Position numbers: made by a program. Below are positions 51,001 through 64,000 of a stretch of DNA of 64,000 nucleotides, piece after piece. The stretch is taken from contig NC_047024.1 in NCBI RefSeq assembly GCF_902652985.1, forward strand, positions 13,950,001-14,014,000, written 5' to 3'. Positions within the stretch are counted from its first letter, which is position 1. Each line of letters starts with the position of its first letter. This DNA comes from Pecten maximus (lineage: Eukaryota).

Positions 51001-54000
51001 TCATCAAATACACTTTCCATATACTGCGTTACTTTGATTCCAACTCGAACAGACAGAATGAATATACCTAACCTTAAATCCCATTGTCTGCCAAATATAC
51101 GGTACAATGTATACAGGAAATGCATCTGTTGTTAGTCAAACTGCTATGACTGACACATTTTATTTTCTGGCGATCTTGATTTTGGTATAATACGTAGTCG
51201 CATGGTCTGTATTAAACGTGGATGTTTAGCCGTGAGAGATAACCACTATTTAATTATTACACCAATAGTGGCGATATCGATTGATAGGTTGCTATCTGAT
51301 GGGCTTACTATCTATGAAGCGGTCACTTACAGCGATCTCGGCGTGTTGTGGTCAGTAATTGCTAGTTCTGTCGGTCTCAATATTCCAGCCAGACTCAGCC
51401 TGCGTCTGACAGCGTTAGAAAGTCACCCTTCCCCCGATCCCTACCCCTCCTTCTCCCCTTCCTTCTGTATTCCTCAGTCTCTGTTACGGCTACCATTATC
51501 TCCACAACTGCGTAATCGGTTGTCCCCATCAGGCCGCCATTATTCATTAACCTTTATTACAGCTGAGTTGCTGTCTATTTCAGAGACCTCCTCATTTCAT
51601 GTATTTACAGACGATAACCAAACAGTAGATGATGTCATTGATTTGGACGATTCCACCGCCACAGGAAATGAGTCGCTTCTAGAGGCAGCAGACGGAAAAA
51701 TCATCTTCGAAACATACCCAACAAAGCTGGTAGAATCTTCACGTGATATTATCAGCGATGACGTCGATGGATTTATTGGTTCCGGTTCCGGTTTTGAAGA
51801 AGAACAGAGCAATGTCACGGAAGTGGAAACTTTCACGTCTCTGAAAACATCAGGTCGGTGACATTATTATTTACTTGACGTGTGCTGTAACAATTGATCA
51901 GTGTGGGTTCCATGTCGCAGAAAGGGAAGTCACTCTTTAAGTCACCATACAACTAAACGCTGCTGTATCTCCCCAAATTGGTAGAAATAATCGTGTCTAG
52001 CAGCCATTTCTCATCGTGTTCTTCATACAATTGGATAACCTAATTTCGGAGATGTTTAGCTACTTTATAAGGTTCCTTTTTTCACAGAACAACTTGAGAA
52101 ATACCAGGGCTGGGAGCTCTAGTTCATTTCTCTGACGTAATATCTCGTCTTGCATTCTTTTCCATTTCGAGCCGTTTTAACTTTTTTTTGTTTACGACTG
52201 CCTTCTTTTTCAGACATACGATCAATGAAAAACGTTTACTTAATTCGTCCTAGTATTGTCTTCATATGTCTGTCGTCACGTCTGATATGATTACGTGTTT
52301 ATTTACATGTAACAGGTCCAACGGACACTACCCCATATGTGACGTCAGCCCCTGTCACTGAGGAACGTGACGACGATGACGTGGAGGCGTCGGCCAACAC
52401 GGAGATTGTAACCATGAGAGACGATAGCGTCACCGAGGAACCAAGTACGTCATTGTTATATGTTTATATTCTAAGTGTTGATTCTTTATATGAACATACA
52501 AAGTGAAAACAACAAACATTTGACGATGAAAACACCGTGAATGCAATGTGAAAATATCGTTTCATGTTCAGATTTTCCACACAATGCATCAGTTAAATAT
52601 TAATACGCCAGAAAAATAGTCCGCGTTTCATTATCTTGAGTGGTGTTCTCTTTGCCATTTATTCTCATGAAATAAATCTAATTTACCATTTACCACGAAT
52701 CATGTTATGTGATGTCTTACAAAAAGAAAAAGAAAAAAAAACTTTTAAAATGTGGAGGGACACGGTAAACATGGCAAGGTGCATTGGCGGGATCACCGGC
52801 TGTTCCATCAATTTTGCATTGTTCATATATAGCTATCAAAAGTTATAAAAAATAAAAATAACTCTTTATTCCAAATAATCAAATCTACATCATAATGTAA
52901 ATATATGAATTGAATGGGGTTTTTTTTTTCTTTTTGAATAGAGCATAATGTATATATGTTAGTAACTTATTTAGATTAAAACCAAAGCAATATACGTACA
53001 AAGTACATTAGGTGTTACCAATATTATAAACGCAATTTAATTAACAACAATCTTTTTTAATTTCAGATGTGTTTGACGATGCTGACAAAATTCCAAGCTG
53101 TACGTATCATACTGTGTTCTTTGTCTATCATCTATCTATTAAAATTCATCACGTAATCGGCATGTTATCCCGTTTATGTCACCTATGTAATATACCCTAG
53201 AAGGTTTTCCATTGATTGTGCCAATCGTAATATGGACAATGGCGGGACGTTATGCATTGTAAATGGTGCAACAAAATGGCTGTCTCCATTTAAATAAAAT
53301 CTTACACATTTTCACTTTACTTATGTCAAAATATAAGTATTCTGAGTTACACATGTATGTGATAAAAGGTATCTTATTGCTAATCATTTCATATGAAATT
53401 TTATGAAACTCTTTTCGAAAGATTCAATTTTTAGTCGCCGAGACTCGTAAACATGAAAGCCTCTAAGATTCGTTTTATAAAAGATATCCTATTTTGATCA
53501 AACCCAGAATGATACTTGAATGGTACTTCAATACAATGGTATTCCCCTTATTATCCGTTTAAATGCTGAAGAGATGCTTGCAATAATGGCTGACGATTGC
53601 GTGCATTGGTATTTCCAAAAATGTCAATTTGACAAATAAACTATCTATTTGTAACTACCAGAGTACCAACTATGCTAATTTCACTTTCACTAACGAGATA
53701 CTTACAGTAATTACATTTGCCTTTTATTCTGTTTAGTCTTGTACACTGTGTTTTCTACTATATTGCACAGAAGTCTGGGGTCTTGAAAATTCTTGGCATG
53801 ATACGAAAAGAGTTCCTGTGACCAGTAGCCTACGGCCCCTGCATTTGCCTTTAGAACAAAAATAAGAACTCGTTTTATTTACATATGTATATATTGTTGG
53901 TATGGATATAGAGGCTTTCCGCATCAATCAATTTTCCTAATAATGAATAAATGTGTATTTCCTATTTCCGTTACAGTTCTCAAACTATGTGAGAAGAAAA

Positions 54001-63000: not shown

Positions 63001-64000
63001 GTGTGTGTTCAAACATTCAACATGACGTGTCACAGGTGATCAGTGCTTAGAAGGTGACACGAGTGCATTCGAAAAATCACACTTTACGTCAACAATTTAA
63101 ATGAACTCTGAATACTGTCATTAGACTTAACAAAAACAGAATGTGCACTTGCGTGCATGCTGATGCATGTGGGATTTCGGTGAGATGCGCAATGTGACTT
63201 AGGATGTGCAAGGACAAAAATGGTTATAAGATACGAATAACAAAACGACTTTGTCGAGTATCGAATTCATGAGCGACTGAACACAGGTACATATACTCGA
63301 TAAACTGCAATCAAATTGCATTACATTTCAAACTTCGATACAGGTGATAGAGCAGCATAGCTATCACGATCCAGTATAGATGAATCTCTACAAAAACAAC
63401 AAATCTACAAAAGTTTGAAATCCACCTCATTGGACTTTTAAGCATGGTAATAATCAGCTGTATTAGATGTTTTCGTCGAGTTAAAGGATTTTGCTGCGAA
63501 TTCTTCACTGCATGACTCGGTCAGTCTCTGTATATACTGTGTTATATAGGAAATCATATGATGACGAATACATTCGAATTCACACTGTAGAGTATCCAAT
63601 ACCATTATCTACATGTAGTTATCATGGTAGATATATATATCTACACTTTCACCATGATCGGATATTCGACAGTACAACTACTGCCATATATCGGAGATAC
63701 CACACATCACGCAGCCAACAGTATCATGTCCCGCATCTGTTCCAGTTCACTGATTGAACAGTTATCACAGAATAATCATTTGTGTTGACACAATCTTTGT
63801 CGAAAGCAATACTATTACATTTCATGGATGGGGATTAGCGGGAAGTCCTCTGTATGTAATATATATATATACATTAGTGAAGTGTTTGTTCATAAGACAA
63901 ATGAAACGTTTGTATTGTACATATGATATATAAATCTGACTAGATGTTTTGCTGGTATGGGTAGTTAAAAAGAAAATTTGTTTGCAGAGTTTGCTGGAAA

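What the first reader, a model, noticed from the sequence alone, without database searches (positions are those of the whole stretch)
51563..63050. Unusual mosaic protein: proteoglycan-like stalk + follistatin/Kazal + TSP1 + ENDOD1-like nuclease
Seen: ten exons splice in a single frame, every intron in phase 1. Established: symmetric phase-1 modules are the hallmark of exon-shuffled extracellular proteins, and vertebrate ENDOD1 proteins are essentially a nuclease-fold domain with or without TM segments. I do not recognise the fusion of FS/Kazal and TSP1 adhesion modules to this fold. Inference: a lineage-specific extracellular matrix or immune protein that might bind extracellular nucleic acid or glycosaminoglycans, or act in shell matrix given the Asp/Glu-rich stalk.
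Basis: partly seen in the sequence, partly recalled or inferred. Interest (0 to 1): 0.75.

Follow-up and report, generated by a model that had tools for sequence, protein, structure and literature searches.

The report
Matrix-type gene beside nuclease-like gene
An invertebrate-looking locus encodes an acidic follistatin/Kazal matrix-type protein and, just downstream, an ENDOD1-like nuclease-fold protein, but the sequence alone cannot show that they form one fused protein.

Summary
The ten segments exist as described. All have AG/GT borders, all introns are phase 1, and the stop is at 63048-63050. Six segments are solid coding sequence.

- **E4:** a true follistatin-type module. Kazal_2 E=2.9e-9; it aligns end to end with agrin and follistatin FS domains.
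- **E9+E10:** an Endonuclease_NS-like domain. Pfam on E10 alone is below cut-off (18.1 vs 23 bits), but 30 of 30 Atlas neighbours carry PF01223.
- **E1-E3:** acidic, Cys-free, Ser/Thr-rich, with one Ser-Gly cluster.
- **TSP1 label (E6):** weak. A WxxWxxW motif is present, but the best Pfam match is 14.6 bits against a cut-off of 41, and there is no PDB or fold hit.

The fusion is not shown. It rests on two micro-exons (30 and 21 nt). Because the exons are symmetric phase 1-1, an open frame proves nothing about connectivity. E7 can also be read as the end of a first coding exon starting at ATG 59294, which encodes a hydrophobic leader.

My odds are about 0.5 for two genes and about 0.4 for some fused transcript. 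Interest is moderate to low until cDNA is available.

The parts
51154..51562 (+). Open frame continuous with E1, upstream of the proposed E1 acceptor. It has one in-frame ATG at 51202, followed by a hydrophobic stretch. It may be a longer E1 or a first coding exon; unresolved.
   Evidence: The ORF 51154-51861 has 235 codons. ATG 51202 has hydropathy 2.54. There is no Pfam match. The codon-usage score is intermediate.
51563..51853 (+). E1: acidic, Ser/Thr-rich, Cys-free segment with three N-x-S/T sequons and a Gly-Ser-Gly-Ser-Gly cluster followed by Glu residues (candidate glycosaminoglycan site).
   Evidence: Borders are. It has 96 aa, D+E 23, K+R 4, S+T 25, C 0 and pI 4.05. No Pfam family at E<=1.
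52316..52444 (+). E2: acidic, Cys-free segment.
   Evidence: Borders are. It has 42 aa, D+E 13 and K+R 2. No Pfam family.
53067..53099 (+). E3: 33-nt candidate micro-exon (acidic), with a weak donor.
   Evidence: Borders are. The donor scores 5 of 9. It is too short for any search.
53977..54192 (+). E4: one complete follistatin-type (FS) module, an EGF-like hairpin plus a Kazal domain. It holds nine Cys, and the tenth is made by the split codon at the E4/E5 junction.
   Evidence: Kazal_2 E=2.9e-9, 37.3 bits against a cut-off of 22.8; EGF E=0.0011, below cut-off. Agrin 5.5e-31 summed, best single repeat 33.6 bits over query 4-66; follistatin 4.4e-06. The junction codon reads C.
54458..56104 (.). 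45-bp satellite, 36.8 copies, inside intron 4.
56434..56469 (+). E5: 36-nt candidate micro-exon. Its first two bases complete the last Cys codon of the FS module. It also carries one Cys seven residues before the Trp motif of E6.
   Evidence: Borders are. Junction residues are C and A. One Cys. An E4/E6 junction without E5 would read S instead of C.
56957..57196 (+). E6: divergent TSP1-like (TSR-like) segment with WxxWxxW, then RxRxC, and five Cys, followed by a 26-aa tail. It has a 7-of-9 donor in phase 1.
   Evidence: TSP1_spondin E=0.35 for the whole exon and E=0.042, 14.6 bits for residues 1-54, against a cut-off of 41. WxxWxxW occurs 2 times in 127,996 six-frame residues. There is no PDB sequence hit. 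The AF2 model has pLDDT 51.7 and gives no fold hit.
59294..59363 (+). E7 in two readings. It is either an internal 30-nt micro-exon from acceptor 59334, or the 3' part of a first coding exon that starts at ATG 59294 and encodes a 23-aa hydrophobic leader. The donor at 59363 is phase 1.
   Evidence: ATG and leader are. The donor scores 8 of 9 and the acceptor tract is 75% pyrimidine. An in-frame stop lies at 59282-59284 (read). Background rates are 11 of 264 and 8 of 65.
61122..61142 (+). E8: 21-nt candidate micro-exon; the least credible part.
   Evidence: The donor scores 5 of 9. The following intron would be 60 nt. The same frame is open back to an ATG at about 60959, but with no hydrophobic start.
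61203..61688 (+). E9: about 65 aa with five Cys and no family match, then a basic stretch (10 of 16 K/R, residues 66-81), then the N-terminal part of the nuclease-like domain. It cannot be a first coding exon.
   Evidence: The ORF 61178-61693 has no ATG before the acceptor. Cys lie at 3, 35, 51, 59, 65, 82 and 106. No Pfam match, whole or in halves; no PDB hit; no Atlas hit. pI is 9.49.
62374..63050 (+). E10: the core and C-terminal part of an Endonuclease_NS-family (ENDOD1-like) domain, ending at stop 63048-63050. It has no membrane segment.
   Evidence: PF01223 E=0.0022, 18.1 bits against a cut-off of 23, residues 36-163 on profile positions 69-181 of 223. In the Atlas, 30 of 30 hits are PF01223, best score 0.93 with 184 of 256 features shared. 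The highest 19-aa hydropathy is 1.38.

Best explanation
The interval holds genuine multi-exon coding sequence on the + strand for secretory-pathway modules, in two blocks.

Block A (51563-57196; both ends unresolved) encodes:
- an acidic, Ser/Thr-rich, Cys-free stretch with a candidate glycosaminoglycan site;
- one agrin/follistatin-type FS (EGF-hairpin plus Kazal) module;
- a divergent TSP1-like strand module.

Block B (E9-E10, 61203-63050) encodes:
- a Cys-rich region with no family match;
- a short, very basic stretch;
- an ENDOD1-like Endonuclease_NS-fold domain without a membrane anchor.

I judge it slightly more likely that block B is a gene of its own than that all ten exons make one protein. 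In that reading, its first coding exon runs from ATG 59294 to the strong phase-1 donor at 59363 and supplies a hydrophobic secretion leader.

Inferred mechanism:
- Protein A is a matricellular or proteoglycan-type protein. Its FS and TSR-like modules bind matrix or growth-factor-type ligands.
- Protein B is a secreted nuclease-fold protein that binds, and perhaps cleaves, extracellular nucleic acid or another polyanion. The basic stretch would help binding.
- By a motif that I recall rather than a motif from a call, the His and Asn of the beta-beta-alpha-metal site appear kept (H52, N74 of E10). The Asp-Arg-Gly before the His is replaced, so catalysis is doubtful.

Shown: the exons, the phases, the FS module and the nuclease-family kinship. 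Inferred: secretion, ligand binding, catalytic state and the gene boundary.
For: - **Exons and phases:**
- **FS module:**
- **Nuclease family:** one search gives E=0.0022, below cut-off. In one search, 30 of 30 neighbours are PF01223, and the best cluster is mostly eukaryotic and chordate.
- **E9 needs an upstream phase-1 exon:** its frame has a stop 8 codons before the acceptor and no ATG.
- **An own start is available:** ATG 59294 is the first ATG after an in-frame stop. It is followed by 11 mostly hydrophobic residues and joins the 8-of-9 donor at 59363 in phase 1.
- **Background rates favour the own start about 3 to 1.** Such a pseudo-leader precedes 11 of 264 acceptor-like sites outside satellites. 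An in-phase acceptor-like site lies inside 8 of 65 hydrophobic ATG-ORFs.
- **The resulting layout matches human ENDOD1:** signal peptide residues 1-22, endonuclease domain residues 49-257 (PMC9126970, passages).
- **E8 is doubtful:** the intron after it would be only 60 nt, so the ten-exon chain is questionable in detail.
- **An ENDOD1-named transcript is expressed in a bivalve:** it is among the top 25 gill transcripts of Mytilus galloprovincialis (PMC4581086, one table passage).
Against: - **E7's acceptor is good.** It has YAG, 75% pyrimidines and a CTRAY-like site about 30 nt upstream, as an internal exon needs.
- **E6 looks like an internal exon.** It ends in a 7-of-9 phase-1 donor, so block A continues downstream. 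The gap to ATG 59294 is only 2.1 kb. That gap would have to hold A's last exon, its 3' UTR and B's promoter, in a window whose first 44 kb show no recognisable gene.
- **The start context is poor.** The context of ATG 59294 is weak, and the A-rich 200 nt before it contain several ATGs.
- **The leader is mediocre.** It has no basic n-region, an Arg inside the hydrophobic run, and no clear small residues at -3/-1 (read).
- **The leader could be a by-product of a pyrimidine tract.** E4 also shows a leader-like ATG at 53943 that arises from its pyrimidine tract.
- **No convincing last exon for block A.** A crude scan gives 20 candidates.
- **Profile evidence for the nuclease domain is below Pfam's cut-off.** E9 matches nothing.
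Confidence: 0.5

Rival explanations
1. One gene. E6 splices to E7 (and perhaps E8) and on to E9-E10. The product is a single secreted mosaic protein: acidic stalk, FS/Kazal, TSR-like module, unknown Cys-rich module, ENDOD1-like domain. A softer form is a conjoined locus that produces both the fused transcript and a stand-alone nuclease-like transcript from an internal start.
For: - Same strand, 4 kb apart, and all borders phase 1, so the join is in frame with or without E7 and E8.
- E6 has a 7-of-9 phase-1 donor and therefore needs a downstream exon. E9 has no start of its own.
- E7 has a strong acceptor and a strong donor.
- Cys counts are even in each block: 16 in E4-E6 including the junction Cys, and 12 in E9-E10.
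- No clear last exon for A or promoter for B is visible.
- There is a precedent for a nuclease-like domain inside an extracellular mosaic: ENPP1-3 (PMC8808174).
Against: - Phase agreement alone has a chance of about one in three, or more, because phase 1 is also usual after signal-peptide exons (established knowledge).
- The link uses micro-exons that nothing supports.
- The in-frame ATG with a hydrophobic leader at E7 is found at only 11 of 264 acceptor-like sites.
- I could find no described protein with this architecture.
Confidence: 0.4
2. Whatever the gene boundary, block B is an active secreted DNA/RNA non-specific nuclease (digestive or immune, clearing extracellular nucleic acid) rather than a binding-only or pseudo-enzyme domain.
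For: - Family kinship with PF01223.
- Long, intact ORFs.
- A His and an Asn lie where I recall the catalytic His and the metal-binding Asn of the family (E10 H52 and N74, positions; the motif is recalled).
- No membrane segment.
- High gill expression of an ENDOD1-named transcript in a mussel (PMC4581086, passage).
Against: - The three residues before the His read His-Ile-Ile rather than the recalled Asp-Arg-Gly. A Gln stands where I recall a Glu (for the letters; the alignment is by eye and not from a tool).
- Human ENDOD1 is called an 'atypical nuclease' (PMC9126970, abstract).
- The related ENPP1-3 domain is inactive (PMC8808174).
- The Pfam score is below cut-off.
Confidence: 0.3
3. The E6 segment is not a TSP1 repeat at all. 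It is an unrelated Cys-containing linker that carries a Trp motif by chance.
For: - Pfam scores are 11.6-14.6 bits against a cut-off of 41.
- No PDB sequence hit at E<=10.
- No fold hit: 0 of 20 matches at E<=0.001, best 3.3.
- The Cys pair that I recall after the Trp motif (CSxTCG) is absent.
Against: - WxxWxxW occurs only 2 times in 127,996 six-frame residues of the window, and here it is followed by RxRxC.
- The only Pfam family listed is a TSP1 family, and it matches over nearly the full profile (positions 5-50 of 52).
- The low-confidence model has three long strands, as a TSR does.
- E5+E6 hold six Cys.
Confidence: 0.35

Closest known systems
Vertebrate ENDOD1 (endonuclease domain-containing 1)
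   Same: Both have an Endonuclease_NS-family domain in a secretory-pathway protein. The best Atlas cluster for E10 is a mostly eukaryotic, chordate PF01223 cluster. Human ENDOD1 has a signal peptide followed by the domain (PMC9126970, passages). Block B would have the same layout if it starts at ATG 59294.
   Different: Human ENDOD1 has three C-terminal transmembrane motifs, and E10 has none. The human domain starts 27 residues after the leader. Here about 100 residues come first: a Cys-rich part and a basic stretch that match nothing. Orthology could not be tested.
[quoted passage not shown]
   Same: They are the known case of a nuclease-like domain joined to small Cys-rich extracellular modules in one protein, and that domain is catalytically inactive (PMC8808174, abstract and passages). 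This is what the fused reading would work like.
   Different: ENPPs have somatomedin-B-like modules and a phosphodiesterase domain. They have no FS/Kazal or TSR module. No ENPP chain was hit by E10 or E9 in the PDB sequence search at E<=10.
FS (follistatin-type) modules of agrin, follistatin, FSTL1/3 and SPARC
   Same: E4 aligns over residues 2-66 with FS repeats. Agrin's best repeat scores 33.6 bits, follistatin gives E=4.4e-06, and FSTL3, FSTL1 and SPARC/BM-40 are weaker. Kazal_2 is above the Pfam cut-off. One module is encoded by one phase 1-1 exon.
   Different: There is only one FS module in the window (no second copy). No EF-hand, laminin-G or thyroglobulin modules were seen. The neighbouring modules are different.
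Thrombospondin type-1 repeat (TSR), spondin type
   Same: E6 has a Trp ladder motif, an RxR motif and a Cys before the Trp motif (from E5). The only Pfam family listed is TSP1_spondin.
   Different: The Pfam score is far below cut-off. The recalled CSxTCG Cys pair is missing, and the stretch between the last Trp and the first Arg is shorter than I recall for TSRs.
Testican/SPOCK-type Kazal proteoglycans (recalled, not from a call)
   Same: An acidic region with Ser-Gly sites is combined with one FS/Kazal module (for the composition here).
   Different: As I recall them, testicans carry SPARC-type calcium-binding and thyroglobulin modules. Neither was found here. No sequence comparison was possible.

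Membership tests
Follistatin-type (FS) / Kazal domain | Kazal profile match above the curated cut-off | tested here: met
   Kazal_2 scores 37.3 bits against a cut-off of 22.8, E=2.9e-9.
Follistatin-type (FS) / Kazal domain | Full-length alignment to solved FS domains, including the N-terminal EGF-like hairpin | tested here: met
   Query residues 2-66 of 71 align to agrin and follistatin FS repeats. EGF scores E=0.0011, below cut-off.
Follistatin-type (FS) / Kazal domain | Ten-Cys pattern (the count is recalled) | tested here: met
   E4 holds nine Cys. The E4/E5 split codon reads Cys. This holds only if E4 is followed by E5 or is read through.
Follistatin-type (FS) / Kazal domain | Protease-inhibitory reactive loop | not tested
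   No assay or curated site comparison was available.
Thrombospondin type-1 repeat | TSP_1 or TSP1_spondin profile above the curated cut-off | tested here: not met
   E6 scores 11.6 bits whole and 14.6 bits for residues 1-54, against a cut-off of 41. The N-terminal Cys lies in E5, and the joined sequence was not searched.
Thrombospondin type-1 repeat | WxxWxxW followed by RxR (Trp-Arg ladder; motif recalled) | tested here: met
   Present in E6. WxxWxxW occurs 2 times in 127,996 six-frame residues.
Thrombospondin type-1 repeat | Cys pair of the CSxTCG stretch (motif recalled) | tested here: not met
   E6 has no Cys between the Trp motif and RxRxC.
Thrombospondin type-1 repeat | Elongated three-stranded fold | tested here: inconclusive
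   The single-sequence AF2 model has pLDDT 51.7 and three long strands. Foldseek against the PDB gives 0 of 20 matches at E<=0.001.
Endonuclease_NS (PF01223) / ENDOD1-like | Profile match above the curated cut-off | tested here: not met
   E10 alone scores 18.1 bits against 23, E=0.0022, covering profile positions 69-181 of 223. E9 gives no match.
Endonuclease_NS (PF01223) / ENDOD1-like | Nearest neighbours belong to the family | tested here: met
   In the Atlas search by features, 30 of 30 hits are PF01223. The best score is 0.93 with 184 of 256 features shared, and recognition is 2516. The tool warns that a third of shuffled proteins also get ten of ten in one family.
Endonuclease_NS (PF01223) / ENDOD1-like | Catalytic His in a DRGH-type motif plus a metal-binding Asn (motif recalled) | tested here: inconclusive
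   H52 and N74 of E10 sit in motif-like contexts, but the residues before the His are H-I-I. No tool alignment to a characterised nuclease could be made: the PDB search gave only two chance hits at E about 1.
Endonuclease_NS (PF01223) / ENDOD1-like | N-terminal signal peptide, as in human ENDOD1 | tested here: inconclusive
   The candidate leader from ATG 59294 is of mediocre quality. No signal-peptide predictor was on hand.
Endonuclease_NS (PF01223) / ENDOD1-like | Orthology to ENDOD1 | not testable with these tools
Proteoglycan core protein | Ser-Gly sites flanked by acidic residues (consensus recalled) that carry glycosaminoglycan | not testable with these tools
   A Ser-Gly cluster at E1 residues 73-76 is followed by Glu residues. 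Actual glycanation needs biochemistry.

The most novel reading that the evidence does not exclude
At least some transcripts join E6 to E7/E9. The animal would then make a secreted mosaic in which an acidic, possibly glycosaminoglycan-bearing stalk, an agrin-type FS module and a TSR-like module carry an ENDOD1-like nuclease-fold domain. This would be a matrix-tethered binder or cleaver of extracellular nucleic acid or polyanions. It would have arisen by phase-1 exon shuffling, or by read-through capture of a neighbouring ENDOD1-like gene, in parallel with the ENPP1-3 solution.
Probability: 0.4. Interest if true: 0.55.

Novelty: new member of a known kind. Interest (0 to 1): 0.33.

Why it matters
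If the two blocks are separate genes, this is ordinary annotation. One is a matrix-type FS/Kazal gene. The other is one more invertebrate ENDOD1-like gene, notable only for its unexplained Cys-rich and basic N-terminal extension and its altered active-site motif.

If fused transcripts exist, this would be a second, independent case, after ENPP1-3, of a non-specific-nuclease fold built into an extracellular mosaic. It would give a testable handle on what ENDOD1-like domains do outside cells in invertebrates, for example binding or clearing extracellular DNA/RNA at a matrix or epithelial surface. It would also be a clean example of gene capture through compatible phase-1 borders.

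Tried and rejected
**Structure**
- A single-sequence AF2 model of E10 failed (pLDDT 33.3), so I made no fold search with it.
- The AF2 model of E6 was poor (pLDDT 51.7). Its Foldseek search of the PDB gave only noise.

**Sequence and family searches**
- PDB sequence searches of E9 and E6 gave 0 hits at E<=10. E10 gave 2 chance hits, a flavin reductase and a response regulator.
- The Atlas search of E9 gave no usable hit.
- Pfam on the two halves of E9 gave nothing at E<=10.
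- Pfam on the upstream extension of E1, on the ORF that holds E8, on an intronic ORF (57330-57506; only a 16.1-bit match below cut-off) and on three minus-strand ORFs at 44.2-45.3 kb gave nothing relevant.
- A scan of bacterial and archaeal genomes with E10 matched 52 pattern stretches, and none was confirmed.
- tblastn of six exon peptides against the window found no paralogue. All other matches had E of 0.018 or weaker.

**Gene boundary and 5' end**
- A signal-peptide exon for block A was sought upstream. The strict scan of 36000-51562 found 0. The relaxed scan of 30000-51562 found 7 rows, none convincing.
- The CpG observed/expected profile is flat at 0.8-0.95 and shows no promoter-like island between the blocks.
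- Poly(A) hexamers lie at 57279, 57970, 58002, 59260, 59280, 59565, 59975 and 61132. None lies in the 950 nt after the E10 stop. This is not informative in AT-rich DNA.
- The scan for a last exon of block A gave 20 candidates and was not discriminating.
- The codon-usage test of 51202-51561 was inconclusive.
- There are no tRNA genes and no Rfam families.

**Literature**
- Seven text searches were run. One search was badly designed and useless.
- In some searches, only the 20 and 15 top rows of 483 and 474 papers were seen, and none of those rows held the nuclease term. I can say only that I found no description of the fusion, not that none exists.
- Supplements were closed and might hold mollusc gene lists that bear on this.

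**Not checked**
- Transcript evidence was not available.
- For that reason the nuclease domain and the E5+E6 module were scored only in pieces.

I do not take this contig for human.

Full report
**Observation.** The window has 64000 bases and no N. Its many satellites and 33-40% G+C look invertebrate.

This gives exactly one chain in which every intron is phase 1: E1 51563-51853, E2 52316-52444, E3 53067-53099, E4 53977-54192, E5 56434-56469, E6 56957-57196, E7 59334-59363, E8 61122-61142, E9 61203-61688 and E10 62374-63050, with TAG at 63048-63050. E1-E9 are all multiples of three in length. None of the nine split codons is a stop.

How much it means differs by exon.
- The ORFs that hold E1, E9 and E10 (235, 171 and 247 codons) are the three longest non-satellite ORFs in the window.
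- The donors of E4, E7 and E9 score 8 of 9 against a recalled consensus. Only 17 of 3824 GT sites on this strand reach that score.
- E3, E5, E7 and E8 are 21-36 nt. E3 and E8 have 5-of-9 donors. The intron after E8 would be 60 nt, against 462-2241 nt for the other introns of the model.
- Because all exons are symmetric 1-1, the frame also stays open if E7, E8, E5 or E3 are left out. The single frame is no evidence that the pieces belong to one transcript.

**Modules, searched exon by exon.** This lowers the scores of any domain that an intron splits.

- **E1-E3.** Together these are 148 residues with 39 Asp+Glu, 7 Lys+Arg, 37 Ser+Thr and no Cys. E1 has three N-glycosylation sequons and one Ser-Gly cluster followed by Glu residues. 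No Pfam family matches E1 or E2, and E3 is too short to search. 'Proteoglycan-like' is a fair description but is untestable here.
- **E4.** This is a complete follistatin-type module. Kazal_2 scores 37.3 bits against a cut-off of 22.8. Residues 2-66 of 71 align with the FS repeats of agrin (best repeat 33.6 bits) and with follistatin, FSTL3, FSTL1 and SPARC. E4 has nine Cys. The tenth comes from the E4/E5 split codon, which would read Ser if E4 were joined directly to E6. That is a small point in favour of E5.
- **E6.** It has WxxWxxW, seen only twice in 127,996 six-frame residues of the window, followed by RxRxC and five Cys. The only Pfam family listed is TSP1_spondin, at 11.6-14.6 bits against a cut-off of 41. 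No PDB chain is hit at E<=10. A single-sequence model is poor (pLDDT 51.7; three long strands) and finds nothing. I call it TSR-like and unproven.
- **E10.** It matches Endonuclease_NS at E=0.0022 and 18.1 bits, below the cut-off of 23, over profile positions 69-181 of 223. All 30 of its 30 Atlas neighbours carry PF01223. The best neighbour is a mostly eukaryotic, chordate cluster at 0.93 with 184 of 256 shared features.
- **E9.** It matches nothing. Its last 60 residues lie where the missing first third of the profile should be. Its first 65 residues (five Cys) and a stretch with 10 of 16 Lys/Arg are unexplained.
- **Neither E9 nor E10 has a membrane segment**. No paralogue of any exon lies in the window.

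**One gene or two.** E9 cannot start a protein. Its frame has a stop eight codons before the acceptor and no ATG. E6 ends in a 7-of-9 phase-1 donor and so probably continues into a further exon.

A second solution came out of a scan for ATG-initiated, hydrophobic, phase-1 exons. ATG 59294 is the first ATG after an in-frame stop at 59282-59284. It opens a 23-residue hydrophobic leader that runs straight into E7 and its strong donor. That would make E7 the tail of a first coding exon and block B an ordinary 'signal peptide plus nuclease domain' protein. Human ENDOD1 has this layout: signal peptide 1-22, domain 49-257, then three transmembrane motifs that E10 lacks (PMC9126970, passages).

I measured both coincidences on the window itself.
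- Of 264 acceptor-like sites outside satellites, 11 have such a pseudo-leader in the phase-1 frame. E4's acceptor is one example, with ATG 53943.
- Of 65 hydrophobic ATG-ORFs, 8 contain an in-phase acceptor-like site.
- The ratio favours the own-start reading about three to one.

Several points weigh against the own-start reading.
- The leader is mediocre and the start context is poor.
- The A-rich 200 nt upstream hold several ATGs.
- Only 2.1 kb separate E6 from this ATG, in a window whose first 44 kb show no recognisable gene.
- No convincing last exon for block A stands out among 20 crude candidates.
- The CpG profile and poly(A) hexamers do not help.

I end at about 0.5 for two genes and 0.4 for some fused transcript. 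The remainder covers other exon chains.

**The 5' end.** I found no convincing leader exon upstream. The E1 frame stays open for 136 codons before the proposed acceptor. It has one ATG (51202), followed by a hydrophobic stretch. The codon-usage score of that stretch lies between the exons and the non-coding background. E1 may therefore be longer than proposed.

**How it most likely works (inference).**
- Block A has the make-up of a secreted matricellular or proteoglycan-type protein: an extended acidic, glycosylated region followed by two small disulfide-rich binding modules.
- Block B is a secreted nuclease-fold protein. By motifs that I recall and could not align with a tool, His52 and Asn74 of E10 stand where the catalytic His and the metal-binding Asn of the family stand. 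The Asp-Arg-Gly before the His is replaced by His-Ile-Ile, and a recalled Glu is replaced by Gln (letters).
- With the basic stretch in E9, I favour binding of nucleic acid or another polyanion, with weak or no cleavage, over a robust nuclease.
- An ENDOD1-named transcript is among the top 25 gill transcripts of a mussel (PMC4581086, one table passage). Such genes are therefore expressed at a bivalve surface epithelium.

**Comparison with the known.**
- The FS module is a plain member of its family.
- The nuclease-like unit is ENDOD1-like by its neighbours. It fails the Pfam cut-off in halves, and its orthology is untestable here.
- The TSR label fails the profile test.
- Extracellular mosaics that contain this fold are not unheard of. 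ENPP1-3 combine two somatomedin-B-like modules, a phosphodiesterase domain and an inactive nuclease-like domain (PMC8808174, abstract and passages).
- I found no text describing FS/Kazal or TSP1 joined to this fold (only the top rows were seen). The database searches that would settle it were closed.

**Verdict.**
- As two neighbouring genes, this is a new member of known kinds and of low interest.
- As a fused or conjoined gene, it would be a new variant and of moderate interest.
- One long-read cDNA experiment decides between them.

Noticed in passing
window 45347-48494: A 39/77-bp satellite of about 81 copies, purine-rich on the + strand. It explains the G+C of 0.50 and the strong skews there. 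It lies 3 kb upstream of E1.
   Followed up: partly
window 54458-56104: A 45-bp satellite of 36.8 copies and 94% matches. It fills most of intron 4 between the FS exon and E5.
   Followed up: partly
window 1-601; 9454-9839; 14176-15934; 36040-36709; 38842-39750: Further tandem arrays with units of 33, 24, 150, 40 and 29 bp. Outside such arrays, no ORF of 95 codons or more in 1-44000 looks protein-coding.
   Followed up: no
window 51154-51562: The E1 reading frame stays open for 136 codons upstream of the proposed acceptor. It has a single ATG at 51202, followed by a hydrophobic stretch. The codon-usage score is intermediate and there is no Pfam match.
   Followed up: partly
window 53943-53976: An in-frame ATG with a hydrophobic-looking peptide lies just upstream of the E4 acceptor. 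It arises from the pyrimidine tract, and shows how a false 'signal peptide' can appear at an acceptor.
   Followed up: yes
window 61400-61447: A stretch with 10 of 16 Lys/Arg lies between the unexplained Cys-rich start of E9 and the nuclease-like domain. It may be a polyanion-binding or processing site.
   Followed up: no
window about 49390-49640 and 60290-60470: By eye, these stretches look like tRNA-derived SINE sequence, with GGTTCGA-type boxes. ARAGORN and Rfam report nothing there.
   Followed up: partly
window 63051-64000: There is no AATAAA or ATTAAA in the 950 nt after the E10 stop. The 3' UTR probably runs beyond the window or uses another signal.
   Followed up: no
window 58957-59066: A 34-bp repeat of 3.2 copies sits in an A-rich region just upstream of ATG 59294.
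   Followed up: no
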